From: Mytilus trossulus
Taxonomy: Eukaryota
Length of the DNA stretch: 64,000 bases
Assembly: GCF_036588685.1 (NCBI RefSeq)
Contig: NW_026963309.1
Location: 620,001 to 684,000 of the forward strand
Direction: 5' to 3'
This document shows positions 11,761 through 60,741 of the stretch, piece after piece. Each line of letters starts with the position of its first letter. Position 1 is the stretch's first letter. The notes beneath the pieces are model-generated. The model saw only the letters and a list, made by a program, of their open reading frames with translations, did not search any database and was not told the DNA's origin. A program made the position numbers and the translations under genes.

Positions 11761-13763
11761 TATATATCCCAGTCACGTGGTTTATCAGTATTATCATCAA
11801 CTGTATGTGTTCTCATGTGAACCTGTAAAATGTCAGGCCGACTAAAAATTTTACCACATACATCACAGTCATAAGGATTATCACCTGTATGTATTCTCTT
11901 GTGAGTCTTTAAATTACCTTGCACACTAAATCCTTTACCACATACATCACAGTCATAAGGTTTATCACCTGTATGTATTATCATGTGTCTTTGTAAATTT
12001 TGATGGCCACTCAATCCTTTACCACATATATCACAATAATGAAGTGAAGCACCTGAATGTGTTCTGGCGTGTCTCAGTAAAGTATAATGATGACCAAACC
12101 CTTTACCACATACATCACATTTATGACGTTTTTCGCCAGTGTGTGTTACCATGTGCCTCTTTACGTCACCAGCCGCACTAAACCTTTTACCACATACATC
12201 ACAGTCATAAGGTTTATCACCTTTATGTATTCTCATGTGTGTCTTTAAATTATCTTGCGCACTAAATCCTTTACCACATACATCACATCCATAAGGTTTG
12301 TCACCTGTATGTGTTCTCATGTGTCGCTGTAAATTACTAGACGTATTAAACCCTTTCTCACATACATCACATTTATGACGTTTTTCGCCAATGTGTGTTG
12401 CCATGTGTCTCTTCACGTCATTACCATGCCTAAACCTTTTACCACATACATCACAGTCATAAGGTTTATCATCTGTATGTATTCTCATGTGTGTCTTTAA
12501 ATTACCTTGCTCAATAAATCCTTTACCACATACATCACAGTTATGAGGTTTGTCGCCTGTATGTGTTCTCATGTGTCTACGTAAATGACTGAGTCGGCTA
12601 AACCCTTTACCACATACATCACAATCATGAGGTTTATCTTTAGTATGTGTTCTCTCGTGTATATCACCATTATGTATTCTCATGTGTTTCTTAAAATAAC
12701 CTTGATCACTAAATCCTTTACCACATACATCACAGTCATAAGGTTTGTCACCTGTATGTGTTCGCATGTGTCTCTTTAAAGTACCAAGCTGACTAAACTG
12801 TTTACCACATACATCGCAGTCATAAGGTTTATCACCTGTATGTGTTCTCATGTGTCTCATTAAACTACCATGATGACTAAACCCTTTACCACATACATCA
12901 CAGTCATGAGGTTTGTCGCCTGTATGTATTCTCATGTGTCTACGTAAATGACTAAGCAGACTAAAACCTCTACCACACACATCACAATCATGAGGTTTAT
13001 CTTTAGTATGTGTTCTCTCGTTTATTTTTAGGTGATTACCTCCAGAAAATTCTCTAGGACAAAAATCCCATTTGCGAGGTTTTTCACCAGTATGTGTTTT
13101 CGTGTGTCTCTTTAAGGAACTACTGTGACTAAATTCTCTAGCACAAACATCACATTTATGCAGTTTATTACTATCCTCTGTTCCTATTTGTCCCTGTTGA
13201 GTACCATAAATTGTGACTAAATCCTCTGTTCTTATTTGTCCTTGTTGAGTACCATTAATTGTGACTAAATCCTCTGTTCCTATTTGTCCCTGGTGAGTAC
13301 CATTAATTGTGACTAAATCCTCTGTTCCTATTTGTCCCTGTTGAGTACCATAAATTGTGACTAAATCCTCTGTTCTTATTTGTCCTTGTTGAGTACCATT
13401 AATTGTGACTAAATCCTCTGTTCCTATTTGTCCCTGGTGAGTACCATTAATTGTGACTAAATTCTCTGTTCTTATTTGTCCCTGTTGAGTACCATTAATT
13501 GCGACTAAATCCTCTGTTCTTATTTGTCCCTGTTGAGTACCATTAATTGTGACTAAATCCTCTGTTCTTATTTGTCCCTGTTGAGTACCATTAATTGTGA
13601 CTAAACCCTCTGTTCTTATTTGTCCCTGTTGAGTACCATTAATTGTGACTAAATCTTCTACCTCGTACATCCTATTAATAAGGTTTACCTCCAGTATATC
13701 TGTTTGTTCGTGTATGTCTCTGTAAGGAAAAAATGAAGACTTAAATATATGTTTTGTAGACAT
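11760..13763 (-). CDS. Tandem C2H2 zinc-finger protein, paralogue 2 (10 x 16-aa repeat + 16 finger units, the second degenerate)
   Basis: 667-aa ORF with repeated CxxC-x12-HxxxH and TGDKPY-type linkers. Probably a terminal exon with acceptor TTTTTTCCTTACAG (AG at 13721-13720). Confidence 0.93.
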   Translation of the reverse strand: MSTKHIFKSSFFPYRDIHEQTDILEVNLINRMYEVEDLVTINGTQQGQIRTEGLVTINGTQQGQIRTEDLVTINGTQQGQIRTEDLVAINGTQQGQIRTENLVTINGTHQGQIGTEDLVTINGTQQGQIRTEDLVTIYGTQQGQIGTEDLVTINGTHQGQIGTEDLVTINGTQQGQIRTEDLVTIYGTQQGQIGTEDSNKLHKCDVCAREFSHSSSLKRHTKTHTGEKPRKWDFCPREFSGGNHLKINERTHTKDKPHDCDVCGRGFSLLSHLRRHMRIHTGDKPHDCDVCGKGFSHHGSLMRHMRTHTGDKPYDCDVCGKQFSQLGTLKRHMRTHTGDKPYDCDVCGKGFSDQGYFKKHMRIHNGDIHERTHTKDKPHDCDVCGKGFSRLSHLRRHMRTHTGDKPHNCDVCGKGFIEQGNLKTHMRIHTDDKPYDCDVCGKRFRHGNDVKRHMATHIGEKRHKCDVCEKGFNTSSNLQRHMRTHTGDKPYGCDVCGKGFSAQDNLKTHMRIHKGDKPYDCDVCGKRFSAAGDVKRHMVTHTGEKRHKCDVCGKGFGHHYTLLRHARTHSGASLHYCDICGKGLSGHQNLQRHMIIHTGDKPYDCDVCGKGFSVQGNLKTHKRIHTGDNPYDCDVCGKIFSRPDILQVHMRTHTVDDNTDKPRDWDI
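13178..13657 (-). repeat. 48-bp coding minisatellite, 10 copies
   Basis: Ten 16-aa units in the ORF translation; units 5-7 and 8-10 form a duplicated triplet. Confidence 0.9.
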
Positions 13764-30104: not shown

Positions 30105-31832
30105 TTATAAATCCCAGTCACGTGGTTTATCAGTATTATCATCAACTGTATGTGTTCTCATGTGAACCTGTAAAATGTCAGGCCGACTAAAAACTTTACC
30201 ACATACATCACAGTCATAAGGATTATCACCTGTATGTATTCTCTTGTGAGTCTTTAAATTACCTTGCACACTAAATCCTTTACCACATACATCACAGACA
30301 TAAGGTTTATCACCTGTATGTATTATCATGTGTCTTTGTAAATTATGATGGCTTCTCAATCCTTTACCACATATATCACAATAATGAAGTGAAGCACCTG
30401 AATGGGTTCTGGCGTGTCTCAGTAAAGTATAATGATGACCAAACCCTTTACCACATACATCACATTTATGAAGTTTTTCGCCAGTGTGTGTTACCATGTG
30501 TCTCTTTACGTCACCAGCCGCACTAAACCTTTTACCACATACATCACAGTCATAAGGTTTATCACCTTTATGTATTCTCTTGTGTGTCTTTAAATTATCT
30601 TGCGCACTAAATCCTTTACCACATACATCACAGTCATAAGGTTTGTCACCTGTATGTGTTCTCATGTGTCGCTGTAAATTACTAGACGTATTAAACCCTT
30701 TCTCACACACATCACATTTATGGCGTTTTTCGCTAGTGTGTGATGCCATGTGTCTCTTCACGTCATTACCATGCTTAAACCTTTTACCACATACATCACA
30801 GTCATAGAGTTTATCACCTGTATGTATTCTCATGTGTGTCTTTAAATTACCTTGCTCAATAAATCCTTTACCACATACATCACAGCCATGAGGTTTGTCG
30901 CCTGTATGTGTTCTCATGTGTCTACGTAAATGACTGAGTCGGCTAAACCCTTTACCACATACATCACAATCATGAGGTTTATCTTTAGTATGTGCTCTCT
31001 CGTTTATATCACTCTTATGTATTCTCATGTGAGTCTTTAAATAACCTTGTTCACTAAATCCTTTACCACATACACCACAGTCATAAGGTTTGTCGCCTGT
31101 GTGTGTTCTCATGTGTCTCTGCAAACTACTAAGCCGACTAAAACCTCTACCACATACATCACAGCCATGAGGTTTGTCGCCTGTATGTGTTCTCATGTGT
31201 CTACGTAAATGACTGAGTCGGCTAAACCCTTTTCCACATACATCACAATCATGAGGTTTATCTTTAGTATGTGTTCTCTCGTGTATTTTTAGGTTATAAC
31301 CTCGAAAAAATTCTCTATGACAAAAATCACATTTGTGACGTTTTCCATCAGTATGTGTTTTCATGTGTCTCTGTAAGTAGCCACTGTGACTAAATTCTCG
31401 AGCACAAACATCACATTTATGAAGCCTATTACCATCCTCTGTTCTTATTTGTCCCTGTTGAGTACCATTAATTGTGACTAAATCCTCTGTTCTTATTTGT
31501 CCCTGTTGAGTACCATTAATTGTGACTAAATCATCTGTTCTTATTTGTCCCTGTTGAGTACCATTGATTGTGACTAAATCCTCTGTTCTTATTTGTCCCT
31601 GTTGAGTACCATTAATTGTGACTAAATCCTCTGTTCTTATTTGTCCCTGTTGAGTACCATTAGTTGTGACTAAATCATCTGTTCTTATTTGTCCCTGTTG
31701 AGTATCATTAATTGGGACTAAATCATCTACCTCGTACATCCTATTAATAAGGTTGACCTCTAGTAAATGTGTTTGTTCTTGTACGTCTCTGTAAGTAAAA
31801 AATGAAGACTTAAGTATATGTTTTGTAGACAT
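30105..31832 (-). CDS. Tandem C2H2 zinc-finger protein, paralogue 3 (6 x 16-aa repeat + 15 fingers)
   Basis: 575-aa intact ORF, same architecture as paralogue 2. Confidence 0.93.
   Translation of the reverse strand: MSTKHILKSSFFTYRDVQEQTHLLEVNLINRMYEVDDLVPINDTQQGQIRTDDLVTTNGTQQGQIRTEDLVTINGTQQGQIRTEDLVTINGTQQGQIRTDDLVTINGTQQGQIRTEDLVTINGTQQGQIRTEDGNRLHKCDVCAREFSHSGYLQRHMKTHTDGKRHKCDFCHREFFRGYNLKIHERTHTKDKPHDCDVCGKGFSRLSHLRRHMRTHTGDKPHGCDVCGRGFSRLSSLQRHMRTHTGDKPYDCGVCGKGFSEQGYLKTHMRIHKSDINERAHTKDKPHDCDVCGKGFSRLSHLRRHMRTHTGDKPHGCDVCGKGFIEQGNLKTHMRIHTGDKLYDCDVCGKRFKHGNDVKRHMASHTSEKRHKCDVCEKGFNTSSNLQRHMRTHTGDKPYDCDVCGKGFSAQDNLKTHKRIHKGDKPYDCDVCGKRFSAAGDVKRHMVTHTGEKLHKCDVCGKGFGHHYTLLRHARTHSGASLHYCDICGKGLRSHHNLQRHMIIHTGDKPYVCDVCGKGFSVQGNLKTHKRIHTGDNPYDCDVCGKVFSRPDILQVHMRTHTVDDNTDKPRDWDL
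31440..31727 (-). repeat. 48-bp coding minisatellite, 6 copies
   Basis: Six 16-aa units in the translation. Confidence 0.9.
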
Positions 31833-41503: not shown

Positions 41504-43148
41504 TTATAAATCCCAGTCACGTGGTTTATCAGTATTATCATCAACTGTATGTGTTCTCATGTGAACCTGTAAAATGTCAGGCCGACTAAAAACTTTACCA
41601 CATACATCACAGTCATAAGGATTATCACCTGTATGTATTCTCTTGTGAGTCTTTAAATTACCTTGCACACTAAATCCTTTACCACATACATCACAGTCAT
41701 AAGGTTTATCACCTGTATGTATTATCATGTGTCTTTGTAAATTATGATGGCTTCTCAATCCTTTACCACATATATCACAATAATGAAGTGAAGCACCTGA
41801 ATGGGTTCTGGCGTGTCTCAGTAAAGTATAATGATGACCAAACCCTTTACCACATACATCACATTTATGAAGTTTTTCGCCAGTGTGTGTTACCATGTGT
41901 CTCTTTACGTCACCAGCCGCACTAAACCTTTTACCACATACATCACAGTCATAAGGTTTATCACCCTTTATGTATTCTCATGTGTGTCTTTAAATTATCT
42001 TGCGCACTAAATCCTTTACCACATACATCACAGTCATAAGGTTTGTCACCTGTATGTGTTCTCATGTGTCGCTGTAAATTACTAGACGTATTAAACCCTT
42101 TCTCACATACATCACATTTATGACGTTTTTCGCCAGTGTGTGTTATCATGTGTCTCTTCACGTCATTACCATGCTTAAACCTTTTACCACATACATCACA
42201 GTCATAGAGTTTATCACCCTTATGTGTTCTCATGTGAGTCATTAAATTACCTTGCTCAATAAATCCTTTACCACATACATCACAGCCATGAGGTTTGTCG
42301 CCTGTATGTGTTCTCATGTGTCTACGTAAATGACTGAGTCGGCTAAACCCTTTACCACATACATCACAATCATGAGGTTTATCTTTAGTATGTATTCTCT
42401 CGTGTATATCACTCTTATGTATTCTCATGTGAGTCTTTAAATAACCTTGCTCACTAAATCCTTTACCACATACACCACAGTCATAAGGTTTGTCGCCTGT
42501 GTGTGTTCTCATGTGTCTCTGCAAACTACTAAGCCGACTAAAACCTCTACCACATACATCACAATCATGAGGTTTATCTCCAGTATGTGTTCTCTCGTTT
42601 ATTTTTAGGTTATAACCTCGAAAAAATTCTCTATGACAAAAATCACATTTGTGACGTTTTCCATCAGTATGTGTTTTCATGTGTCTCTGTAAGTAGCCAC
42701 TGTGACTAAATTCTCGAGCACAAACATCACATTTATGAAGCCTATTACCATCCTCTGTTCTTATTTGTCCCTGTTGAGTACCATTAATTGTGACTAAATC
42801 CTCTGTTCTTATTTGTCCCTGTTGAGTACCATTAATTGTGACTAAATCATCTGTTCTTATTTGTCCCTGTTGAGTACCATTGATTGTGACTAAATCCTCT
42901 GTTCTTATTTGTCCCTGTTGAGTACCATTAATTGTGACTAAATCCTCTGTTCTTATTTGTCCCTGTTGAGTACCATTAGTTGTGACTAAATCATCTGTTC
43001 TTATTTGTCCCTGTTGAGTATCATTAATTGGGACTAAATCATCTACCTCGTACATCCTATTAATAAGGTTGACCTCTAGTAAATGTGTTTGTTCTTGTAC
43101 GTCTCTGTAAGTAAAAAATGAAGACTTAAGTATATGTTTTGTAGACAT
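41504..43148 (-). pseudogene. C2H2 zinc-finger paralogue 4 with a +1 frameshift after finger 9 (14 finger units in total)
   Basis: ORFs 41961-43148 and 41504-41896 together match paralogue 3. TCACCCTTTA at 41961-41970 versus TCACCTTTA in paralogues 2/3 shows one extra C, which could be a sequencing error. Confidence 0.75.
42756..43043 (-). repeat. 48-bp coding minisatellite, 6 copies
   Basis: Six 16-aa units, same as paralogue 3. Confidence 0.9.
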
Positions 43149-47496: not shown

Positions 47497-48286
47497 TTCA
47501 TTTGTAAAGGAGCAGAACTCTAGAAGAGTTATCGTAACAACACTTAAATTCGAAACTGATCCGTGTTTTGTGGTTATACGACCGCAAAAAATAGAAAGAA
47601 ATTGGTCGTATATTGGTATCACGTCGTCGTCGTCGTCGTCAGTGTCGTCCGAAGACAGATGGTTTCCGGATAATAACTTTAGTATAGGTCAATAGAAATC
47701 AATAAATTTTAACACAAGGTTCAGGGTTGGACCTCTGCGGTCGTACCAACTGCGCTGGGCAAAGCAATTTATTCTATTTGTTAAGGGGCATATTTACTCT
47801 AAAACAGTTAAAGTGACGACACTAAAACTCAAACTTGATATGTGTTTTGTGGTAATAAGCATAGTGTATAAATTTTCATAATATTTTGTAGAGGCTTACA
47901 ATAGTTAGAGAACGGAAACGAAAAATTCAGCAATTTTTCCATTTGTAAAGGGGCATAACTCTAGAACGACCGAAGTGAAGCCACCAAAATTCAACCTTGA
48001 TCTGTATTTTGTAGTAATAAGCATCGTGTATACGTTTCAATCATTTGGTTGAGGCAAACTAAAGTTAGAGAACGGAAACCAAAAATTAAGCATTTTTTTT
48101 CCATTTGTAGAGGGGCATTACTCTAGAATGGTTAAAGTGACGCCACCAAAATTCAAACTTGATCTGTATTTTAGGGTATTGTGTATAAGTTTCATAATTA
48201 AAGTTAGAGAACGGAAACCAAGTTGGGACGTACGGACGGACAAGGGTACAACTTAAATGCTCCCTACGCTACGACGGGGGCATAAA
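47497..48286 (+). mobile_element. Helentron-type non-autonomous element(s)
   Basis: ~160-bp units, GGAC tract, 3' hairpin ATGCTCCC...GGGGCAT; related to 5002-5990. Confidence 0.6.
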
Positions 48287-49210
48287 GAGACTGACAACTA
48301 TGCAGATCACTACTAGGCCGAACAAACAAAAAAGGAGGGACAAACATCTTATAAACGGTTTTGAATATTGACGAGGGTTGAAGATTATTCACAATGATAA
48401 TTTGTCTAGGCCGTACGGTGACCTATAGTTGTTCATTTCCGTGTCATTTGGTTATTTGTGGACAGTTCACAGTTGTCTCGTTGGCAATTTACCACATCTT
48501 CTTTCTTATATTCACAATACGCTAAAATACTTATTTTAGAAAGTAACAACGTGTTGAACATACAAGTATTCACCTCAGAATCATGAAGTCTTTTCTAATC
48601 CGCTGCATTTGTCTATTCAATTGTGTTCATGAAATACTTTTTCTCTCCACTAATTTCGATCGATTTTGAACAACTGCTTCCACGACTTTGGGGATAAAAT
48701 CAAAAGGGATCTCCTATTATGTTACCATATACATGCAGGTTTTATTATAATTCCATGTTAAGTTAAAGAGTTGTTATCCGGAGAGTCAAACGCCTTTTCT
48801 TTGTGAACTTATTTCGATGTGCAACTTTGTACATAGTGATCTCGAAATGTATATGGACTTTGCTCATTGTTGAAGTGACCTATAGTTGTTAATGTCTGTG
48901 TCATTTTGGTCTTTTGTGGATAGTTGTCTCATTAGCAATCATACCACATCTTCTTTTTTATACTTCCATTTATGTTATGTGGTCATATACAAGATTGTTT
49001 CCAATCCATTACAAGGTTCTAGACTTATAATCTGTTAACTCCTTTCTTGTACTGCTTTGTTTATTTGTAGTAACTGTGACCTTAACCCTCAAACGAAGTG
49101 ACCTTATAGAACTATTGATATTCATTATGTTTGACCATAGGTTGTATATGGACTGGACTACAGTGGCAACTTGCTGGAATTAAGTAGACAGTGACTGGAC
49201 ACAGAACTAA

Positions 49211-49511
49211 GACAGCAACCATTTGATTTTCTGGGCCCCCCCCCCCCCCCAGAAAATCAAATATGTTTTTTTTTGGAAAAAAGTTTGTTTCCAGGTTTTT
49301 GGTGAAAAAATAATTTGTTTTGGACCCTGAGAAAAAAAAAATGTTTGTTTCACCCTGAGCTGCCACTATATAATGCTAAAATTGAAAGAAAAAATTGTTT
49401 TTGGTTTGTCGCTACAAAAATAGATTGTTCTTCGCCGAAGGCGAAAAAAAAAGTTTGCACAGAAAAAAAAAACCATACCCCCCCCCCCCAGAAAATCAAA
49501 TGGTTGCTGCC
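49211..49511. mobile_element. MITE with ~25-bp TIRs and TAA flanks
   Basis: GACAGCAACCATTTGATTTTCTGGG / CCCAGAAAATCAAATGGTTGCTGCC. Confidence 0.75.
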
Positions 49512-50878
49512 TAATTATCAATCAATCAATGGTACTAGACATACACGTCAAGTCGTATTTTTAAACGTGCTAGTTGGCAAGGTAAACGTCAATCCTATAG
49601 AAACTTCACCCAACCAGGACAGAATATGCTGACTCCAGAGACCATCAGTCTTTGTTCTTATTCCTAAATGCGTGCAAAGCGGAAAAGCTGAAAATACCAA
49701 TTTGAAAATAAATACCGAGTTTGGACCCGACCGGGATGGTCGAACCCACGACCTGACGCACTCCCCGAGTCGTGCAGGCTCCTTTGAGCCAAGAGACAAA
49801 AAATAAGTGGTTTGTGATAAGGAAAGATAGAAATACACCGTAAACATCAACTATACATTTATTTTTATTTCTACATGCATAAATCTAGTGTCATATATCA
49901 GACACCATTTTGTATTCCTTCACAAATGACGACAAAAATATATTATGTACAAATTTATTGTTTTTAATGCTTCCTTTTTCTGCTGTTAAAATACTTTTTA
50001 TAGCAAAAGTTTCTATTGTCAATCTTGGTCATTAATATTTATAGTTTTTTTTTCGTTCTATTCTCGGTCATTATCTACCAATTCGACATCATTTTTCTCT
50101 CTCTTTCATATAAACTAAACAATTCAATAAATTTAATGAAAACCACTTTCTGTAACTACAATACCAAACTAGCATATATTCAATTCATTTGAGAAAGTAA
50201 AGTTGTTTTCTTTTTTTATTTCTCTTTATTCTTTATTTACATCATATATTGAGAAAGCTTTGAAAAAGCTTTCTTTTATTTTTTTCTCTTTGTCATTTAT
50301 TTACAACATTACTAAGTTTTATTTTCGTATAAAGTAAAAAAATAAACTAAAAAATATAAAGGTTCTCTTTTCAGTATTTGGCCTAACAATACTCGAGACA
50401 TGCATGTACATACTTCAATACATTATAAGAAAGAAACGCTACAAACTTGCAAAAGCAGAATTAGCCAATATGTTCACTTCTTCTTAAAACAAAATAAAAA
50501 TGTAAAAAAAAAAAAAATCTTCAAGACATCTTTTTTCCGTTTATCATATATGAAACTACGAAATAATTCTGTCTTTTTCTATAGCAAGCCGTTTAACTAT
50601 TTATTCTAAACTTCAAGATATCTAATAAAACTTGATGTTAAGATATCTCATATAGTTTATAAGATATCTTGTATATAAAATTGAGAATGGAAATGGGGAA
50701 TGTGCCAAAGAGAAAACAACCCGACCATAGAGCAGAGACAATAAATATGTCTTCTGAAATTTTCAAGCTATATATATATATCCAGAGACATATATTGTTT
50801 GGCACAACTTTTTGGAATTTTGGATCCTCAATGCTCTTCAACTTTGTATTTATTTGGCTTTTTACTATTTTGATCTGA

Positions 50879-50922
50879 GCGTCACTGATGAGTCTTATGT
50901 AGACGAAACGCGCGTCTGGCGT
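50879..50922 (+). ncRNA. Minimal type I hammerhead ribozyme
   Basis: GCGTCA (stem I) CTGATGA GTCT-TATGT-AGAC (stem II) GAAA C-GCGC-G TC^ TGGCGT (stem I). All core nucleotides present; predicted cleavage after 50916. Confidence 0.85.
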
Positions 50923-52608
50923 ATAAAACTATAATCCTGGTACTTTTGATAACTATATAATAAAATATCACTATGTCTCTGGTATATCTTATGCAAACTT
51001 GATTATACAAGTTATCTTTGGTATCTTGAAGTTAGAATAAATAACGAAACTATTTGTCATTCTTTTTGATAATTACATTACCGTACTAGGGAGACTTGGA
51101 ATACACGTTTATCATCAAATATATTTTTTGTTCTTTTAAAAAACAAAATTATAAAAAAATAAATGAACTTTTTTTTCTCTATTTGCATAACATAAAACAA
51201 CATATACAATATAAAGGTTCTCTCTTTTCACATTAAAGCATGCATTACTAGTATAGCATACACTTTAAGTCATTTAAGAAGGCAAAACTACAAATTTGCA
51301 AAAGCTATGAAAACTCATTTTCAATATAAATCGAGGTATATTGTGCTGTTTATAAAACAAATTGTTAAAAAAATTAAATGCAAACGTCATCATTTTTTTT
51401 TCTCCTTTAAAATGTAAAGGGGGGGTTTAAAATTTTGTCAGCAACTTTACTAGAACTTTAAAATACAAATCTTAAAACTAACCAAACACAGAATATATCT
51501 TAAAACTATAAAAATAAAACATAATTTGGTAATCAAGTTTGAACCAGACCATCTTTTAAAATGCTTGAAAATCGTCAAATCATGATTATATTTTTTCCTA
51601 ATACAACTATAGTTAAAAACGATACACTAAAAAAGCATGTAACTCATAAGCTTGAACCATGCTGAATTGTTAAAAATCTTCAAGAATATATGATGTGCAA
51701 AATAAAATTTTAAATTTTCAAAATTATTAAAATAACCATAATACTGTTTTAGATTAAAAACTATCTAAAATCTATGAAAATCATCGAAATGGTATAAACT
51801 CGTTAAAATATTCAACTTTTATACGTAGATAAAGAAGTTAAATCAGAAGTTTTAAAATTCGCAATTGCAGCTAGCTTCAAAATTGTAAAAAGAACACTTG
51901 TAAAACTTGTGATAAAAGACCTAGTTATAAATATGAAGATTCAAAAGCACACATGGGGGTCATTTAAGGTACATGTATTACAATGCAGGGGCAACCAGAG
52001 GAACTCCTGTATTGTCAGTGTAAAAAGTGCGTAAAAATTACGAGCTTTGAAGACGAGTCTTGATCATTATAAAACTTGTTTTAAAAGTCGACAAAAAAAG
52101 TACAATTCTAAAATGTTATTATTTGCAAGTTTGTGAGATAAAAAAGAAATCGGTGAACTTGTTTTAAAATTCTATGATTATCTATAACAAAATAAATAAA
52201 ATTCAAATCTAATTAGATATACTGGGGTCCAAGCAGGGATATTTAAAAAATACATTTTTAAAATCTGTTTTTAAAACTCTAGGGTATCTCAAATAGCAAA
52301 CAACATCGATAAAAATTTAAAATTTAAAAAGCACCAATTTGACATTTAAAGAAAAATATAGAAATTTAAAATGTTATTAAACGTTTTCGATATTTAAAAT
52401 TGAATTAGACTCTCGCAATCTTGTTATCAAAACGCATTTAAAAGATTTAAAGAATATTTCACAAATTAAAAGTATTAACAAAAAGTTTAAAAAATATATC
52501 GTTTCATCTTGAATAAAATATTGTCTTCCATTCAAATTTGGCCATCTTTTCACGTCATATACTAAAGGCGATCTTCTTTCGTCAATAAGGCGATCTTCTT
52601 CCATCAAA

Positions 52609-53322
52609 TTAGGCTATCTTCTTTCTTCGTCTTCCACAGCTACTTCTTAGGGTGTAACATGTCTCCGTAGTGGACGACCCCTGGGCATCAGAGAACGGAC
52701 AATGGCGGAGTGTATGGGCGTTATCCCCTGTGGCTTTACACTTCGGGCAAACGTACTTGCGGAGTACTGGGCATATTACTTTTCCCCTATTGTCTTTCAA
52801 CACATGTGTAGTGTAATATTCTCTGGTTTCACCGTTCCGTTTACAAAGAATGCAGTATTTCTCTTCGGAAGCGGGTTTAGCTGGCATTATCTGGTATTGT
52901 AGCGGAGCTTGTAGCATATTATCAGAGCTACCGTTCAATTGTCTTAGAAAAGCTGATAAAAGGTAATCACTGGAATATCCTTCATCTGAAAAGCTGTTTT
53001 CTCCGGAAGATGCGGTCTCACCGGACGAAAGAGAGTCCGACCGACACAACTGATCCTGATCATTGTTATATATTTGTACAGCCATCATGTTGTCGTCTGT
53101 TGCGTCTGGCATATTTTCAAATACATCAAGGTCTTCATCCGAAAAAGAATCAGAAGTAAACGGCTCCGATGATAAAATATCTTCAATTGAGCTAATCGAG
53201 TTTGCCCAATAATCAACCTCTGTTTCAGATAACAATTCTGTAGTCTTCTCGACATGTTCTTCTCTTTCTTTAAATAAAAGAGAACTGAAATTCAAATAAT
53301 CTTTGAACGGACTGTAATCCAT
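52609..53322 (-). CDS. nanos: Nanos homologue (CCHC-CCHC RNA-binding zinc fingers)
   Basis: YCILCKRNGETREYYTTHVLKDNRGKVICPVLRKYVCPKCKATGDNAHTLRHCP is the zf-nanos signature. N-terminal YSPFKDYLNFSSLL resembles the NOT1-interacting motif. First ATG is at 53322 (the track start at 53349 is TTG). Confidence 0.96.
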   Translation of the reverse strand: MDYSPFKDYLNFSSLLFKEREEHVEKTTELLSETEVDYWANSISSIEDILSSEPFTSDSFSDEDLDVFENMPDATDDNMMAVQIYNNDQDQLCRSDSLSSGETASSGENSFSDEGYSSDYLLSAFLRQLNGSSDNMLQAPLQYQIMPAKPASEEKYCILCKRNGETREYYTTHVLKDNRGKVICPVLRKYVCPKCKATGDNAHTLRHCPFSDAQGSSTTETCYTLRSSCGRRRKKIA

Positions 53323-53408
53323 CTTGTCGAGTCTGCAAGTTTGTAACAAATGACGCTGGGTAAGATTTTTCGATGTCGGCGAGATGCTTTTTTCCCAGGC
53401 TCATTAAA

Positions 53409-53416
53409 ATTTGCAT
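53409..53416. promoter_or_regulatory. Octamer (POU) motif upstream of nanos; GC-box-like GGGGCGG at ~53550
   Basis: Exact ATTTGCAT about 90 bp upstream of the ATG; function is not shown. Confidence 0.3.
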
Positions 53417-53899
53417 AATAAAACTGCGTAGACATCAAACGGTTTATGGCTTTTGATCTTTTTGATTGACAGGAATATCGCACGGAACAGTGGTCAGTCT
53501 AATAGGTAAGGGAATGGGTTAGGAAGGGTTATACTTATTTTGTAGAATAGGGGCGGTGATCTGCGTTTCTGTTATAATGTTTCAGAATGGGAAAGTTTTA
53601 AAATTAAAAATTAAATTTTTAAAAAATGCTTAATTATTTTAGCAGTTTACAAAAATTAAAACCAACATTCAGCATCTTTTTTTTTTCGTAATGAAAGTAT
53701 CAAAATAGTTTGAAACTTTAAACATCGAAAGTTTTACCAGTAGAAACTAATTTAAAGAGATTTCGAGATTGTGTAAAAGTTTTGGAATTAAATTTGAAAT
53801 ATTTACAGTTATAATTGAAGTAGAGTTTTTCTTAGAAATCGAAATAAATGTAAATGTGTTCTAGTTGAAGTTCGAATGTTTGAGAAGCAGTTTAACTTC

Positions 53900-54283
53900 A
53901 ATAACATTAACGGTACCAATTTTTCGGCACCAGATGCGCATTTCGAAAATACATGTCTCTTCAGTGATGCTCGTGTTAAAAATATGTAAAATCCAAAGCT
54001 AATATAAAAGATGAAGAGCTATAATCCAAAAGTTCCAAGAAGTATAGCCAAATCCGTGAAAAGGAATCAGAGCTTTGCCTAAGGGAGATACATTCCTTAA
54101 TTTATATTTTTTATATCATTTTGTAACAGCAAATTTAATAACACAAAAAATCCGTATTTTCATGCCAGTACCGGAGTACTGGCTACTGGGCGGATGATAC
54201 CCTCGGGGAGTAACAGTCCACCAGCAGAGGCATTGACCCAGTGGTAGTAATAACATTAACGGTACCAATTTTTCTGTACCAGA
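53900..54283 (-). mobile_element. Non-LTR retrozyme-like element (349-nt monomer + terminal redundancy)
   Basis: Direct repeat AATAACATTAACGGTACCAATTTTTC..ACCAGA at 53900-53934 and 54249-54283; contains a hammerhead motif. Confidence 0.75.
53927..53970 (-). ncRNA. Minimal type I hammerhead ribozyme
   Basis: Minus strand GCATCA CTGAAGA GAC-ATGTATT-TTC GAAA T-GCGC-A TC^ TGGTGC. Core intact; one mismatch in stem II. Confidence 0.75.
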
Positions 54284-56268
54284 AACGTTTGAAACAATGT
54301 ATCAGAGAATTGATAAACAGTTTGCGATCGGGTTGGAGTTCTATTCTAAAACCGAGCTATGGTTACAGAATAGAGACTAGTTAAAAATCGAGAACAATAA
54401 ATAAAAATAAAAATAGTCAAAAATGCATATGGTTAAAAAAAAATGCAGAATAATTGGGTGGCGGTGCTTAGATATAAATAATAGATAAATTGGAGGGAAA
54501 AATTGAAGGACACAGAACAGTTCATACCATAACTTTTAGTTATAGTTGACAGTCGAGTTCACGAAAAAAAGAGAAGTACGTAGAAGATCATAGAACATAT
54601 CAAGTCATACAATGGTCCGGTAACACAGTTATCGTTCTTAGATTATAGGCCCTATAGTGATGGAGCAGTGTGTTACTTACCAATTTTTTGTATACCCCTT
54701 CCAAATTTATTTCTTCATGTTTTATGCTTCAAATATCAAGTTTGGGAATGAAATTGCACTGAAAAAAAATGGGTAAATGAATTTTTCAGTAAAGAAGTAA
54801 TTTGGTTCAACTGAAAAAGGTTAAAATTTAGCATTTCGGAAGCTGTCAAAAGATTTCAAGACCCCGTTTATGACATGTCCATATTTTGAGTTACAGCCGA
54901 TGAAGTTTTCTAAATTTTGATATAATTTGTCCCAAAAGTAGCACAACACTATAAAAGTAGACTCTGGTGTGACTTTTTTCATTTTAATTTATTGTCTAAA
55001 TGAAATGCACTTCGAAATAACTGTGTTGTCGGACCATACATTGAAATGGTCTACGGTATTTGATGTCTGGTGGACACATATATATAGGATGATGTGGTAT
55101 GAGTGCCAATGAGACAACTCTCCATCCAAGACTGAAGTCACAATATATTCAAGTAAACCTTTATAGGTCAAGGTACGGCCTTCAACACGGTGCATAGGTT
55201 CATACCTAACAGCAATCTATTATTAAAAGGGCCCCCAAAATTACTAGTGTAAAGCCTTTCAAACGGGAAAACCAACATGTTGTATAAACAATAAAACAAC
55301 ACCTTTTTATTTTTCGACTATCTGTGAAAAGATAAGTTTTGTTAAGCCTTTTAGTTTTGATGTGCATGTTTTTTCTTTATTTTGAAGAATAATAATATAT
55401 TCAAACATTACAATATAAGGAAGTCTGCTCCTCGCGTTTTTGAATTTTTGTCAGATGTGCGGAATCCTCTGGTTTTATCCATGTAGTGCCATTAAAATAA
55501 TGCCCACTTACCCCTACTTTTTTGTCCTTTATTTGATTAAACATTGTTTAAAATATCTTCTTTGAAAATCTTATTAATCCTTGTTATTTTTTCATTGTTA
55601 TTTGAAAGAAAAAAGGTGTCAATGATAAATATGTGAAAAGCCTAAAGAGAATTATTTCCCGCCATCAAAATATTATTGTCTTTTTAATAGCTCGTTTTTA
55701 AACAGAGTAGCGAACGTCCTTGACTTCAACGTTCGGGTTATGTTTTTTTCCTAAACTGACTTTTCTTCTTCCGCAAGACAACTTCTACAACCTGAATACT
55801 TTGGAAATGTTCATCTGAAATCATTTTGAAAATGTTGAAATATTTACCACTAAGCATTGGGCAAATATCAATCCATCATTCAATAAATGACAGTTACTTG
55901 TGGTCATCTGCATGTGGATAGATGTTACCGTGATGAGGAACATGAGAGTACTTAAGGAATGAGGTTTGGGGCGCTTTATTTTTAATCCAGTTTCCAGACC
56001 GACGTTTATGCAGTGTTGAATCCAGGGGGTTGGGACCCAAACATTTTTTGACGATCAATGAATTTGAATTGATTGGGACAAAAAGTTTGAACCACCACCC
56101 CCTTTATTATTGGTAAGGAAACCCCCTTTTATAAATAGCTGGATCCGCCCGTGCTTACTGGATGTGTAAACTCTTTGAACACTCATAAGCTGAATAAAGA
56201 TCAAAAGGATTGCTTCATTGGATGCAATGCATCTTCAAATATTCTAAAGATATAATGTATACTATAAT

Positions 56269-56600
56269 AAACAAGAATAAGTCCATAGTACTCGGATGCT
56301 CCACTCGCACTATCATTTTCTACGTTCAGTGGACCGTAAAATTGGGATAAAAACTGTAATTTGGCAATTTAGAAAGATCATATCATAGGGAACATGTATA
56401 CTAAGTTTCAAGTTGATTGAACCAACTTCTTCAAAAACTACCTTGACCAAAAACTTAACCCGAAGCAGAACAGGCGGGCGAACGGATTGTACAACATACG
56501 AACGGACAAACTGACGTGCGGACGAACGAGTAGACGAACTGGCCAACAGACCAGTCAGAAAACAAAATGCCCCTCTACTATCGTTGGTGGGGGATAAAAA
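56269..56600 (+). mobile_element. Short Helentron-associated element
   Basis: AAACAAGAAT start, GGAC/GAAC microsatellite, 3' hairpin ATGCCCCTCTAC...GGTGGGGGAT. Confidence 0.55.
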
Positions 56601-57094
56601 TACCTGAAAAATCCTTCTTACTCTATGTCAGGATCTTACAATGATATTACATGTATTAGACGAGTTATGTCCAAAAAATGTATATTGATATTGAATAGAA
56701 ATTACATTTCTCTACTGAAAGGGAGATAACAATGGGATTTGTTAGCGTACCATTATGAACAAATACCTAAGAACATGGGCTTGATTTAATAATTACTTCA
56801 TATGGGGGGAAATCTCGTTCAAGCTACGTTTTTACTTACAAGTAGGACATACCCCAAGAATTATATGTAAACATTTGTGATTTGATTTGATTTTGACCCT
56901 CGCTTTTGATTCATGGAATTAGAGCCTGAATATGTGAAGATGTGTTCTTCAATATCATGAATATAGTCAAGTATAATTTAAAGTGAGTCTCAATCTCTGC
57001 AGAAAGAACTATACTTACTGTCGTCTCGCTTAATAATTAGGGAATAACAAGGGTGCTCATTTCCCAAAAACTTCTTTTTCCCCACTTTTTCTCT

Positions 57095-57410
57095 ATCCGT
57101 TTTCCCCTGTACCCCACACCGCTACTTGTTTTATCCGTTTCCCCCTGTACTCAACATCGCTACTTCTTTTATCCGTTTCCCCCTGTACCCCACATCGCTA
57201 CTTGTTTTAACCGTTTCCCCCTGTACCCCTCATTGCTACTTGTTTTATCCGTTTCCCCCTGTACCCCACATCGCTACTTGTTTTAACCGTTTCCCCCTGT
57301 ACCCCTCATCGCTACTTGTTTTAACTGTTTCCCCCTGTACCCCTCATCGCTACTTGTTTTATCCGTTTCCCCCTGTACCCCACATCGCTACTTATTTTAT
57401 CCGTTTTACC
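57095..57410. repeat. 38-bp minisatellite, ~8.3 copies
   Basis: Unit ATCCGTTTCCCCCTGTACCCCACATCGCTACTTGTTTT. Confidence 0.92.
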
Positions 57411-57511
57411 CTTCTTCATCCCACATTCCAAAAAACGTGTCAACCCCTTCTAAAATTAATGAGTCAAACTAAAAATTGAATTTGTACTAAAACTAAACTA
57501 AAATGTTTTTC

Positions 57512-58140
57512 TCTGGCTGTTTATGACGTCTTTACACTAAATCCATTGTATGTTGGATGTGTACGGATTGATTGCTTAGTCTTATAATTAGAGGCATGAT
57601 TTTTTATTAGTTGTTAATGGCTTTGAACTAGCTGTCAGATAAATGCGAGTACTCTCAGATATGTTCATTGTGTCTTTTTGTGTCGGGATGTATAAGTACC
57701 CGGCCACGTCCACTTTAATTTTTTGTCTATCTGATGAGTTAAGCTTTTTTCAACTGATTTTTATAGTTCGTTTTTATGTTGTACTGTTAAACCACTGTCC
57801 CAGGTTAGGGGGAGGGTTGGGATCCCGCTAACATGTTTAACCCCGCCACATTATTTATGTATGTGCCTGTCCCAAGTCAGGAGCCTGTAATTCAGTGGAT
57901 GTTGTTTGTTTATGTGAACCATATTTTTTTTTTCGTTCATTTTTTTTACATAAATAAGGCCGTTAGTTTTCTCGCTTGAATTGTTTTACATTGTCTTATC
58001 GGGGCCTTTTATAGCTGACTATATGCGGTATGGGCTTTGCTCATTGTTGAAGGCCGTACGGTGACCTATAATTGTTAATGTTTGTGTCATTTTGGTCTTT
58101 TGTGGATAGTTGTCTCATTGGCAATCATACCACATCTACT
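57512..58140 (+). mobile_element. Non-coding repeat homologous to the PLE 3' region (shorter relatives at ~48410, ~48860, ~55085-55275 minus)
   Basis: Shares AACTAGCTGTCAG..TGCGAGTACTCTC, CCTGTCC(C/T)AAGTCAGGA, GAAGGCCGTAC and GTTGTCTCATTGGCA..CACATCT blocks in the same order as 22015-24215. Confidence 0.7.
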
Positions 58141-58297
58141 TTTTTTTTTTATATTGAACTAAAAGCTTCAATTAGTCTGCTCTCTTTACGGGGTGTTTAT
58201 TTCCAAAATCCCTCTATTTTGTATTTGTTTTTGCATTTTCCACTTTCTTATTCTTCTTTTTCCCAGACTTAAAACTCCACATCGCCACTTTTTTACA

Positions 58298-58329
<32 letters not shown>

Positions 58330-58598
58330 AACAACCAAAAAACCAAAAAAAATCCCCCACCACAACCACCACCACGTACCACCTTTTTATATCATATATT
58401 ATAACCCAAAAGCGTATATCACCCCCTCTTAATATTTGAATATCATGAATATAACTTATAAGTCAATCTGTATAAGAACTACGTTATGTCGTCTCGCTCT
58501 ATTAATGTTTACATTATATATAAATTACTGTACTTCCTGGATCCGGAATCAATTTTTCGTCTTCGGATTTCCAATGTCAATTTCTGTAAACAAACGAT

Positions 58599-58614
58599 GG
58601 AAAATTTCCCGTAA
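58599..58614. promoter_or_regulatory. Overlapping NF-kB/Rel-like (GGAAAATTTCCC) and STAT-like (TTCCCGTAA) motifs
   Basis: Consensus matches about 100 bp upstream of the ATG at 58711; function is not shown. Confidence 0.35.
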
Positions 58615-58710
58615 GCTAGTTCATTTAGTAGGATCTTCCGCAATTCTTGTTAAGAGATATGCGAGAAAGGCATAATTCGACCAGATAGTGAAAAAAGGTG
58701 TGGAATCATA

Positions 58711-59460
58711 ATGAAACAATTGTATCAGATATTATTCGGGTTTTTTATTTGTGTCTGCGTATATTTGATGTACGTGAACGTATACCCGGATGTGAAAAGA
58801 CACAAGACCGTAAAAATAGACAAGATAGATGAATTAGGGAATTACGTGCCGTTTCTCGCTTATTCGATCATATCTATGTGCGATACAACACCGAAACTAA
58901 TAGAATTGTATAAAGTATTCAATTCATCATCTATTTCAAAGTACTATAAACCACTAAACTATACCACGTATCATATGACAATCTATAATTTGTGGAATCA
59001 GAGAGAGAAATTATATCCATACCAGGTCGACCAGAGCGGGCGAGCACCAAAAAGCCGAGATTCAAGCACATTGAATCGTGTTATGAAACCTGCTCTCTTC
59101 AAGATGGCAAACAAAATCAAAGAATTTAAAGATCTGAACGAAATACATGTTTCTTTTTCAAAAATTAAAAGAACTTCTACGGGAATTGTTATGGATGTTC
59201 AATTAATGTCTTCAGTACAAATAGGTCAAATAAAAAGTCTTAGATCGTGGTGTGTAGATAACTTTTATAATAGTGATGCAAAATTGAAATTCCACATTTC
59301 TTTTGGATACTTGTACAAAAAAGTTGAAGAAGACCTCACTCAACCAATATATAAACTTGAAGAATGGATAAAAGAAAACATTCCAGTAATAGTGGTCAGG
59401 CGACCTTCACCAACTATTTTTCTGTCTATGGAGAACTTCCACTCGGCAATCCTCGGGTAA
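58711..59460 (+). CDS. 2H phosphoesterase (DUF1868-like) with N-terminal hydrophobic helix
   Basis: 249-aa intact ORF in AT-rich DNA; two Hx(T/S) motifs YHMTI (H88) and FHISFGY (H195). KIDELGNYVPFLAYSIIS resembles the DUF1868 N-terminus as I recall it. Residues ~4-24 are hydrophobic. Confidence 0.8.
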   Translation: MKQLYQILFGFFICVCVYLMYVNVYPDVKRHKTVKIDKIDELGNYVPFLAYSIISMCDTTPKLIELYKVFNSSSISKYYKPLNYTTYHMTIYNLWNQREKLYPYQVDQSGRAPKSRDSSTLNRVMKPALFKMANKIKEFKDLNEIHVSFSKIKRTSTGIVMDVQLMSSVQIGQIKSLRSWCVDNFYNSDAKLKFHISFGYLYKKVEEDLTQPIYKLEEWIKENIPVIVVRRPSPTIFLSMENFHSAILG

Positions 59461-59588
59461 TTCCGCTACTCATCAGACGGAGGAACAGAATTGGACGAGT
59501 TTGGACGAGTGATCGAGGACACTTCGTTACGTTTGCATAATCTAATGATCATTTAAAATAGAGGACAGGGGATCCATTAATTAATGTG

Positions 59589-60741
59589 TATATATATATA
59601 TATATTGCGAAAGCAAATTTACAGATTTAACATTGTTGGGTTGATGTTTAGACGAGTTGTATATATATATATATATATATTCATAAGTACGTCTGAGTCA
59701 GTGACAACCCTACAACAGATGTATCCATCGGATCGCCATCAATGATGGTGATACATGGCTGTGTACATAATGTATATACAACTCGTCTAAACATCAACCC
59801 AACAATGTTAGATCTGTAAATTTGCTTTCGCAAATTTTTGGTTCTTCCCTCGCCGGGATTCGAACCCATGCTACTGTGATATCGTGACACCAAATCGCCT
59901 GCACTGCAGCCGTCCCGCTAGACCACACGACCACCTGGGCTCTCAAAAAAAGAGCTTTCGGTGGCCATATGTTACCTTTCCACGTCAGTTTTAATCTAGC
60001 GGCGTACTACAGTACATGATATATAAAGCATGAAGATGTTATTGTTACAGATCAGCTAAATTATCTATAGTAAAGGATCCTACAAATTAATGTAAGATAC
60101 AGTCACAGAAAATAATTATATTCATAAGTACGTCTGAGTCAGTGACAACCCTACAACAGATGTATCCATCGGATCGCCATCAATGATGGTGATACATGGC
60201 TGTGTACATAATGTATATACAACTCGTCTAAACATCAACCCAACAATGTTAGATCTGTAAATTTGCTTTCGCAAATTTTTGGTTCTTCCCTCGCCGGGAT
60301 TCGAACCCATGCTACTGTGATATCGTGACACCAAAACATCTGTTGTAGGGTTGTCACTGACTCAGACGTACTTATGAATATAATTATTTTCTGTGACTGT
60401 ATCTTACATTAATTTGTAGGATCCTTTACTATAGATAATTTAGCTGATCTGTAACAATAACATCTTCATGCCTTATATATCATGTACTGTAGTACGCCGC
60501 TAGATTAAAACTGACGTGGAAAGGTAACATATGGCCACCGAAAGCTCTTTTTTTGAGAGCCCAGGTGGTCGTGTGGTCTAGCGGGACGGCTGCAGTGCAG
60601 GCGATTTGGTGTCACGATATCACAGTAGCATGGGTTCGAATCCCGGCGAGGGAAGAACCAAAAATTTGCGAAAGCAAATTTACAGATCTAACATTGTTGG
60701 GTTGATGTTTAGACGAGTTGTATATATATATATATATATAT
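59589..60741. mobile_element. tRNA-headed 441-bp repeat in tandem and inverted arrangement within (TA)n
   Basis: A-box-like TGGTCGTGTGG (60566) and B-box GGTTCGAATCC (60633). 59681 and 60122 are direct repeats; 60336-60720 is the inverse of part of the left array. Confidence 0.75.

What the first reader, a model, noticed from the sequence alone, without database searches (positions are those of the whole stretch)
58711..59460. Intronless membrane-anchored 2H phosphoesterase of a mainly microbial/viral-type family next to nanos
Seen: intact 249-aa ORF with both catalytic Hx(T/S) motifs and a signal-anchor-like N-terminus, embedded among animal repeats. Known: 2H enzymes cleave cyclic phosphates, 2'-5' oligoadenylates (AKAP7, coronavirus ns2, rotavirus VP3) or cyclic oligonucleotides (phage Acb1), and bivalves have expanded cGAS-like/STING signalling. 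As I recall, DUF1868-type proteins are mostly bacterial or large-virus. Inference: a horizontally acquired, secretory-pathway or extracellular nucleotide second-messenger phosphodiesterase, i.e. a candidate undescribed immune regulator.
Basis: partly seen in the sequence, partly recalled or inferred. Interest (0 to 1): 0.8.

Follow-up and report, generated by a model that had tools for sequence, protein, structure and literature searches.

The report
Virus-related phosphoesterase gene in mussels
A mussel genome keeps several working copies of an unstudied two-histidine phosphoesterase whose nearest non-animal relatives are giant-virus proteins, and the genes beside its bacterial and viral relatives suggest it opens cyclic sugar or inositol phosphates rather than immune messengers.

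Summary
The 249-aa intronless ORF is real: both HxT/S motifs (H88, H195), an N-terminal hydrophobic helix, a confident 2H fold whose best solved match is the DUF1868 protein Atu0111 (Z 17.7). The host is a Mytilus mussel; 5 matches in the genome, under purifying selection (dN/dS 0.13-0.29). Relatives occur patchily in gastropods, an annelid, a brittle star and insects, and widely in giant viruses and iridoviruses. Rooted on bacterial DUF1868, all animal sequences nest among viral ones, so viral origin is likely, but one old capture with losses is not rejected (AU p 0.06-0.42). The immune-messenger reading is the weaker one: bacterial relatives lie beside ABC importers in 8 of 11 records opened, with inositol monophosphatase, phosphomannomutase or glycerophosphodiesterase, and viral ones beside a phosphodiester-glycosidase gene in 5 of 12 contigs. 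Best guess: a luminal or cell-surface hydrolase of sugar/inositol 1,2-cyclic phosphates (about 45%); cyclic-dinucleotide or 2-5A enzyme about 20%. No activity is shown. Adjacency to nanos is real and probably incidental. The scan noted an iridovirus-type relative before, in an arthropod genome.

The parts
58711..59460 (+). Single-exon coding sequence, 249 aa, DUF1868-like 2H phosphoesterase
   Evidence: model pLDDT 90.9; best solved match 2fsq, Z 17.7, rmsd 3.0, 200 aligned
58726..58776 (+). N-terminal hydrophobic helix (residues 6-22), probable uncleaved signal anchor; orientation weakly favours catalytic domain in the lumen
   Evidence: hydropathy; helix 2-23; flank charge difference only -1 for this copy, so orientation is inferred
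58822..59445 (+). 2H catalytic domain (residues 38-245)
58972..58980 (+). First catalytic motif H88-M-T90
   Evidence: His in 134 of 134, Thr/Ser in 134 of 134 rows of A2
59293..59301 (+). Second catalytic motif H195-I-S197
   Evidence: His in 132 of 134 rows (2 gaps), Thr/Ser in 131 of 134
52609..53349 (-). nanos gene: neighbour only, not part of the enzyme
   Evidence: PF05741 E 3e-23; same arrangement on C5; the other three paralogous loci have no nanos match near them

Best explanation
A domesticated host gene for a metal-independent two-histidine phosphoesterase of the DUF1868-like clade, most likely taken from a large DNA virus (Nucleocytoviricota) at or before the origin of mytilid mussels, then duplicated; this subfamily carries an N-terminal signal anchor. 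Mechanism (established 2H chemistry, inferred for this protein): the two Thr/Ser hydroxyls hold the phosphate, one His activates water for in-line attack, the other protonates the leaving hydroxyl, opening a five-membered cyclic phosphodiester to a monoester. Most likely substrate (inferred from gene context): a sugar or inositol 1,2-cyclic phosphate, or a similar small sugar phosphodiester, met in the secretory lumen or outside the cell, for instance from breakdown of nucleotide sugars, phosphoinositide or GPI head groups, or dietary and microbial phosphodiesters; the monoester is then salvaged. Shown: ORF, motifs, fold, paralogues, purifying selection, viral relatives, neighbourhoods of relatives. 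Inferred: topology (about 65%), viral origin (about 65%), substrate class (about 50%).
For: Fold: 2fsq Atu0111 is first by Foldseek (E 5.8e-8), VIA-align (Z 17.7 against 12.8 for the next) and profile search (E 2.6e-16). Bacterial context: of 20 plasmid records with a DUF1868 match 11 were opened; 8 of 11 have a full ABC importer cluster next to the gene (annotated; 120 and 127), 4 of 11 an adjacent inositol monophosphatase, 1 an adjacent phosphomannomutase, 2 a glycerophosphodiester phosphodiesterase. Viral context: 5 of 12 distinct virus contigs have an adjacent gene with a NAGPA phosphodiester-glycosidase domain, in two subclades and two orientations; 8 of 24 distinct virus-like metagenome loci likewise (partly the same genomes). 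Targeting: 15 of 23 animal or presumed-animal sequences have an N-terminal hydrophobic segment against 0 of 12 viral ones, with flank charges favouring a luminal domain in 12 of 15; one mytilid-like relative (P0174) has a short signal-like start and a C-terminal hydrophobic segment. Origin: best viral structures are iridovirus, ascovirus and Terrestrivirus DUF1868 proteins; top Atlas cluster 81% viral; animals nest in a 50-row clade with viral sequences (SH-aLRT 96); insect members nest among iridovirus-type sequences (100/97). Function kept: dN/dS 0.13-0.29 in the 6 pairs with unsaturated dS, of 10.
Against: No activity was measured and no DUF1868 protein with a known substrate was found. The operon evidence comes from bacterial proteins that form a separate clade on a long branch; 2H enzymes change substrate readily. 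The four inositol-monophosphatase operons are all alphaproteobacterial and probably not independent; 3 of 11 records lack the full importer, one standing alone near a PemIK toxin-antitoxin pair, which would suit RNA 2',3'-cyclic phosphate repair. 7 of 12 virus contigs lack the NAGPA neighbour, 4 having an uncharacterised gene instead. The flank charge difference of this copy is only -1, and the C10 paralogue has no anchor. The best non-mytilid BLAST hit is an animal (Owenia, 99 bits against 85), and AU tests do not reject one clade for molluscs (p 0.29), non-insect animals (p 0.42) or all animals (p 0.06). The position of the mytilid clade moved between trees.
Confidence: 0.45

Rival explanations
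1. Immune second-messenger phosphodiesterase: a captured viral anti-immune enzyme that degrades cyclic dinucleotides (2'3'-cGAMP, 2'3'-cUA) or 2-5A, tuning cGLR-STING signalling, possibly outside the cell as ENPP1 does in mammals (ENPP1 role recalled).
For: Viral 2H enzymes do this: poxvirus and T4 enzymes cleave cGAMP (PMC11410667, section read). Bivalves have large cGLR families and oyster cGLRs make 2'3'-cUA (bioRxiv 2023.02.22.529553, passages). The family is kept by many large DNA viruses and iridoviruses infect bivalves, with one genome from a mytilid data set (PMC12452177, passages). Paralogue expansion in mussels and a 19-member cluster in one unnamed assembly fit an immune gene.
Against: Structurally more distant from Acb1 (Z 7.9), penguinpox PDE (7.5), VP3 (8.1-8.2), ns2 (9.6) and AKAP18 (11.5) than from Atu0111 (17.7). 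Neighbourhoods of relatives show sugar-phosphate genes, not defence genes. In PMC11410667 source data the 'Iridovirus', 'Marseille' and 'Pitho' LigT-like enzymes did not lower the 2'3'-cGAMP signal; whether any of these is a DUF1868 protein is not established and the iridovirus one is probably another gene. Purifying, not positive, selection overall.
Confidence: 0.2
2. General cyclic-nucleotide or RNA-end phosphodiesterase (2',3'-cNMP, RNA 2',3'-cyclic phosphate, ADP-ribose 1'',2''-cyclic phosphate), scavenging nucleotides from digested RNA at the cell surface or in the gut lumen, or doing RNA repair when cytosolic.
For: This is the commonest activity of 2H enzymes (PMC9503650, passages); next-best structural matches are LigT/ThpR-type, Usb1 and CPDase; one E. 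coli plasmid copy lies near pemIK. ABC importers plus a monophosphatase could also serve 2',3'-cNMP uptake.
Against: An adjacent phosphomannomutase, sugar-type regulators and the NAGPA neighbour fit sugar phosphates better; no RNA ligase or KptA neighbour was seen among the virus-locus genes scanned (not every ORF was scanned).
Confidence: 0.25
3. On origin only: an old animal (bilaterian or lophotrochozoan) gene, vertically inherited and lost many times; iridoviruses and related viruses took it from, or swapped it with, animals.
For: AU tests do not reject animal monophyly; best non-mytilid hit is Owenia; anchors in five animal lineages could be ancestral; bivalve iridoviruses carry host-like genes.
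Against: With a bacterial outgroup the viral sequences surround the animal ones; insects nest in the iridovirus-type clade with full support; molluscs are not grouped in any of the five free trees; coding region has no intron in any of 5 copies; of 30 hits looked up, the 7 with a species name include no oyster, scallop, cephalopod or vertebrate.
Confidence: 0.3
4. Contaminant, recent endogenous virus fragment or pseudogene.
For: Intronless; the window contig looks like a second haplotype of C5; last six codons differ from paralogues.
Against: Same gene on chromosome-scale contigs C5 and C10 among host genes and repeats; orthologues in three named Mytilus species; GC 0.34 equals the window's 0.33; dN/dS 0.13-0.29; no virus-like ORF of 150 aa or more in 10 flanking stretches.
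Confidence: 0.02

Closest known systems
DUF1868 / PF08975 (2H-phosphodiest), Agrobacterium Atu0111, PDB 2FSQ
   Same: Fold (Z 17.7, 200 residues), both HxT/S motifs, the N-terminal K-x4-G strand and C-terminal F-x2-M-x2-F strand; 98 of 134 aligned relatives hit PF08975 at E<=0.001.
   Different: 14-16% identity; this protein does not reach the Pfam cut-off itself; it has a membrane anchor; animal host; Atu0111 is listed as of unknown function (PMC3290555 table passage).
DUF1868 proteins of invertebrate iridoviruses, ascovirus and other Nucleocytoviricota
   Same: Best viral structure match (Armadillidium vulgare iridescent virus, E 8e-14, TM 0.71); same clade in trees.
   Different: Under about 31% identity; viral forms have no anchor (0 of 12) and often sit beside a NAGPA-domain gene, not found in the mussel genome with the one query tried.
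AKAP7, coronavirus ns2/NS4b, rotavirus VP3 (2-5A phosphodiesterases)
   Same: 2H fold and catalytic motifs.
   Different: Z 8-11.5, 11-14% identity, different Pfam family, cytosolic or nuclear (recalled), substrate known.
Phage Acb1 and avian poxvirus cGAMP PDE
   Same: 2H fold; precedent for viral use against nucleotide signals.
   Different: Lowest-scoring of the 2H matches (Z 7.5-9.6); no shared neighbourhood.
Agrobacterium acc (agrocinopine) operon logic: importer + phosphodiesterase + inositol-monophosphatase-like enzyme (recalled, no call)
   Same: Same operon layout as the bacterial DUF1868 clusters seen here.
   Different: AccF is a glycerophosphodiesterase-type enzyme, not 2H (recalled); analogy only.

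Membership tests
2H phosphoesterase superfamily | Two HxT/S motifs | tested here: met
   H88-M-T, H195-I-S; conserved columns
2H phosphoesterase superfamily | Two-lobed 2H fold | tested here: met
   pLDDT 90.9; top 21 VIA-align rows all 2H proteins
2H phosphoesterase superfamily | Metal-independent phosphodiester hydrolysis | not testable with these tools
   needs assay
Pfam PF08975 (DUF1868) | Reaches the curated cut-off of 21 bits | tested here: not met
   No hit for this protein; so it is filed as DUF1868-like, not as a formal Pfam member
DUF1868-like clade (by homology) | Transitive sequence homology to PF08975 members and to 2FSQ | tested here: met
   Relative P0172 (48% identical) scores 23.9 bits; 98 of 134 hit; profile finds 2fsq at E 2.6e-16
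DUF1868-like clade (by homology) | Closest structure is the DUF1868 representative | tested here: met
   2fsq first Z units above the next
AKAP7/ns2/VP3 2-5A phosphodiesterases | Sequence family (AKAP7_NLS) match | tested here: not met
   No hit for this protein; 1 of 134 relatives weakly
AKAP7/ns2/VP3 2-5A phosphodiesterases | Cleaves 2-5A | not testable with these tools
   needs assay
Acb1 / poxvirus cGAMP PDE | Close structural likeness including the substrate lid | tested here: inconclusive
   Only general 2H likeness, Z 7.5-9.6; pocket and lid not examined, model coordinates not available
Acb1 / poxvirus cGAMP PDE | Cleaves cyclic dinucleotides | not testable with these tools
   needs assay
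Endogenous viral element (multi-gene insertion) | Flanking viral genes | tested here: not met
   Window ORFs are nanos, zinc fingers and retroelement pieces; flanks of 5 copies show only nanos and a B-box gene at 150 aa or more
Type II membrane / secretory enzyme | Single N-terminal anchor with luminal C-terminus | tested here: inconclusive
   Anchor present; charge difference -1 here, negative in 12 of 15 anchored relatives; no topology predictor or experiment

The most novel reading that the evidence does not exclude
Several animal lineages (mytilids, heterobranch snails, an annelid, a brittle star, sciarid flies) independently captured the same giant-virus 2H enzyme and each moved it into the secretory pathway, where it destroys extracellular or luminal cyclic dinucleotides such as 2'3'-cGAMP and 2'3'-cUA: a virus-derived invertebrate counterpart of ENPP1 and the first function for DUF1868.
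Probability: 0.12. Interest if true: 0.85.

Novelty: new variant of a known kind. Interest (0 to 1): 0.52.

Why it matters
DUF1868 has a solved structure but no function that I could find in print, and no description of animal members. The neighbourhood evidence gives a concrete, cheap assay (sugar and inositol 1,2-cyclic phosphates against nucleotide messengers) that would name the activity for bacteria, giant viruses and animals at once. The repeated gain of secretory anchors in animal copies of a viral-type enzyme is an unusual pattern of domestication; if the substrate proved to be cyclic dinucleotides it would add a new brake on invertebrate cGLR-STING signalling in a farmed shellfish.

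Tried and rejected
Direct Pfam, PHROGs, NCBIfam and PDB sequence searches with the protein found nothing significant. Viral and metagenome scans with mytilid sequences found no relative and phages none, so the context of P0011, a close relative (50%) from metagenome assemblies, is unknown: it may be host DNA of another mytilid or a bivalve virus gene. Search for fused longer forms found none, weak evidence. Expression: no RNA holder listed on record; contigs of 4 of 4 runs laid (three guessed to be RNA) span the ORF, 58534-59550, and most bins of unique flank had little or no cover, which fits transcription but does not show it. A 5' UTR intron, suspected because one contig ends right after an AG at 58631, was dropped: three other contigs run through that point. 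The GTDB scan gave one locus, which carries virus-like genes, so no chromosome-wide bacterial operon count was obtained; operon counts rest on plasmid records. The viral NAGPA-domain partner was not found with one query in the mussel genome, uninformative without a control. The second viral neighbour family has no Pfam or NCBIfam match and only a weak PAP2 lead at 0.84. I could not fix which iridovirus gene PMC11410667 tested (supplement file 2 unreadable, file 4 cut). A functional link to nanos was rejected: other paralogues lie elsewhere and nothing but position joins them. Literature blanks: 'DUF1868' 0 papers, 'mlr3352' 0, Atu0111/2FSQ/PF08975 terms 12 listed, one opened, a table row only; searches listed nothing on this gene by title or abstract start. 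The 2002 classification of the 2H superfamily was not held.

Full report
Observation. The ORF is as described: 58711-59460 on the + strand, 249 aa, no stop, with H88-M-T and H195-I-S and a hydrophobic stretch at residues 6-22. Shuffled windows gave at most 181 open codons in 30 tries. The nearest named proteins are from Mytilus edulis (94%), M. coruscus and M. galloprovincialis, two of them labelled DUF1868 by UniRef, so the window is from a Mytilus mussel and the gene is already in databases as an uncharacterised prediction.

Copies and selection. The genome holds 5 matches, each one open frame: the window copy on the 710-kb contig C34, a 97% copy on C5, a tandem pair 0.38 Mb further on C5 (66-70%), and a 48% copy on C10. 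Window 47.7-59.5 kb is colinear with C5 at 84-98% and nanos lies beside both copies, so the window is probably a second haplotype of that C5 locus and there are about four loci. Four copies have the N-terminal anchor; the C10 copy has none. dN/dS over the domain is 0.13 between window and C5 copy and 0.28-0.29 among C5 paralogues; dS to C10 is saturated in 4 of 10 pairs. GC (0.34) matches the window (0.33). No virus-like ORF lies in the window or in 10 flanking stretches. This is an old, working host gene, not contamination or a recent insertion. Transcription is plausible but not shown (see Tried and rejected).

Fold and family. The protein has no Pfam hit alone. A profile of 12 mytilid rows found 218 representatives at E<=0.001, 150 listed; 98 of 134 aligned members hit PF08975 and their profile finds PDB 2fsq, Atu0111, at E 2.6e-16. 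The model (pLDDT 90.9) matches 2fsq first by Foldseek and VIA-align (Z 17.7, rmsd 3.0, 200 aligned), ahead of LigT-type (12.8), Usb1 (12.0), AKAP18 (11.5), ns2 (9.6), VP3 (8.2), Acb1 (7.9) and the penguinpox cGAMP enzyme (7.5). It is a 2H phosphoesterase of the DUF1868-like clade, although it misses the formal Pfam cut-off.

Distribution and origin. Best viral structures are DUF1868 proteins of Armadillidium vulgare iridescent virus, Terrestrivirus and an ascovirus; the top Atlas cluster is 81% viral; scans gave 12 distinct virus contigs, 6 named as giant-virus MAGs. Named animal members are Owenia (2), Plakobranchus, Lymnaea, Aplysia, Physella, two Elysia species, Amphiura, the firefly Aquatica and three sciarid flies; only 30 of the 150 listed hits were looked up and 7 of those carried species names. 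In the careful 54-row tree insects nest inside the iridovirus-type clade (100/97) and mytilids sit on a long stem beside one unnamed protein (93/87); 54 of about 200 sequences were chosen by me to span the clades. Rooted on 8 bacterial DUF1868 proteins, all animal rows fall in a 50-row clade (SH-aLRT 96) whose members of known context are otherwise viral (quick tree). Against this, the mytilid position changed between trees, the best non-mytilid BLAST hit is Owenia, and AU tests reject neither mollusc (p 0.29), non-insect animal (p 0.42) nor all-animal monophyly (p 0.06); these groups were named after earlier trees had been seen and include unnamed rows that I presumed animal. I put ultimate viral origin at about 65%; whether the mytilid capture was separate is open. 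Iridoviruses of bivalves exist, one from a mytilid data set, and carry host-like genes; no DUF1868 term was found in that paper's text or supplement (PMC12452177, passages, section 20, supplement search).

What it probably acts on. Gene neighbours are the only functional evidence. Of 20 plasmid records matched I opened 11. Eight have a complete ABC importer cluster beside DUF1868, mostly with a ROK or LacI regulator (120 and 127 unannotated, read through); one has an ABC ATPase only, one an MFS transporter and LacI, one stands alone near pemIK. Inositol monophosphatase follows the gene in 4 (all alphaproteobacteria), phosphomannomutase is adjacent in 1, glycerophosphodiesterase is in 2. That is the layout of an uptake-and-breakdown route for a small sugar or inositol phosphodiester: DUF1868 opens it, a monophosphatase or mutase takes the monoester. 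In viruses, 5 of 12 contigs have an adjacent 950-1090 aa gene (a 454-aa piece on one short contig) ending in a NAGPA phosphodiester-glycosidase domain, its N-terminal part kinase-like by eye only, convergent in one subclade and co-directional in another; 4 of 12 have an uncharacterised family instead. Among 35 metagenome loci, 26 looked virus-like and 24 were distinct: 8 with the NAGPA gene, 9 with the second family, 4 with neither, 3 too short; about six repeat the virus contigs. 2H enzymes are established openers of five-membered cyclic phosphates on vicinal diols, ADP-ribose 1'',2''-cyclic phosphate among them (PMC9503650, passages), so a sugar or inositol 1,2-cyclic phosphate suits the chemistry. 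That nucleotide sugars and phospholipase C reactions yield such cyclic phosphates is recalled, not from a call.

Where it acts. 15 of 23 animal or presumed-animal sequences carry an N-terminal hydrophobic segment, against 0 of 12 viral; flank charges favour a luminal domain in 12 of 15, but only by one unit in this copy. Since the sciarid members nest among anchor-less viral proteins, at least their leader was gained separately (inference). A luminal or surface site fits glycan or phospholipid breakdown products and dietary scavenging better than cytosolic 2-5A or cGAMP, though extracellular cyclic dinucleotides remain possible.

The immune rival. Viral 2H enzymes do cleave cGAMP (PMC11410667, section 10 read whole) and bivalves have many cGLRs (bioRxiv 2023.02.22.529553, passages). 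But in that paper's source data the 'Iridovirus' enzyme left the 2'3'-cGAMP signal at 208-234 thousand counts against 114-248 thousand for the non-coding control and 11-22 thousand for pigeonpox; 'Marseille' and 'Pitho' likewise. The figure's accession YP_009021100 would be gene gp023 by sequential numbering, while an earlier, unchecked note of this scan names gp015 as that virus's DUF1868 protein, so the DUF1868 clade is probably still untested. I give the immune reading 20% and a general cyclic-nucleotide or RNA-end role 25%.

Novelty and verdict. Real, functional, correctly called a 2H enzyme, probably virus-derived, substrate unproven. No paper in the library holds 'DUF1868'; related terms gave one table row calling Atu0111 unknown; subscription papers, closed preprint supplements and the 2002 classification were not seen. 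The scan noted an iridovirus-type member in an arthropod before. New here: membrane-anchored animal forms across several phyla, and two separate neighbourhood signals for a sugar-phosphoester substrate. New variant of a known kind; interest 0.52.

Noticed in passing
L026, L027, L032, L035, L037, L065, L078 (gene next to the 2H gene): Conserved linkage in large DNA viruses between the DUF1868 gene and a ~1000-aa gene with a C-terminal NAGPA phosphodiester-glycosidase domain and a kinase-like N-terminal part; no solved-structure match by sequence.
   Followed up: partly
L022:404-2128, L023:6756-8519, L024:3268-7054, L025:2602-5565, L062:2539-4398, L071:5720-7453: An uncharacterised ~550-620 aa giant-virus family that takes the place of the NAGPA gene beside DUF1868 in one subclade; no Pfam or NCBIfam match, weak PAP2-phosphatase lead only.
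   Followed up: partly
L042 (GTDB contig titled Spirochaetia bacterium): Dense AT-rich genes homologous to those of virus contigs L028 and L037: probably a large-DNA-virus contig binned into a bacterial genome.
   Followed up: partly
window 59440-59460: The last six codons differ from the paralogues' conserved end and the DNA after them is unrelated; M. coruscus P0003 has the same new end, and the M. edulis protein P0002 has yet another, frame-shifted-looking tail.
   Followed up: partly
window 47741-59485 against G000:C5:61042360-61062923: Colinear at 84-98%: contig C34 is probably an uncollapsed haplotype of C5, which also explains two near-identical nanos copies.
   Followed up: yes
window 11760-13763, 30105-31832, 41504-43148 (-): Three near-identical C2H2 zinc-finger genes with flanking retroelement pieces, in tandem segmental repeats; the third is split.
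   Followed up: no
window 59575-60740: Nested inverted copies of a high-copy repeat with a tRNA-like part just downstream of the gene; absent from the C5 copy's alignment.
   Followed up: no
L018:4188-5210: Intronless B-box (TRIM-like) gene 4 kb from the tandem C5 paralogues.
   Followed up: no
P0063 cluster: 19 near-identical DUF1868-like proteins on a few megabase contigs of an unnamed assembly: a large tandem expansion.
   Followed up: no
G000: Seven nanos-like zinc-finger matches in the genome, on five contigs.
   Followed up: no
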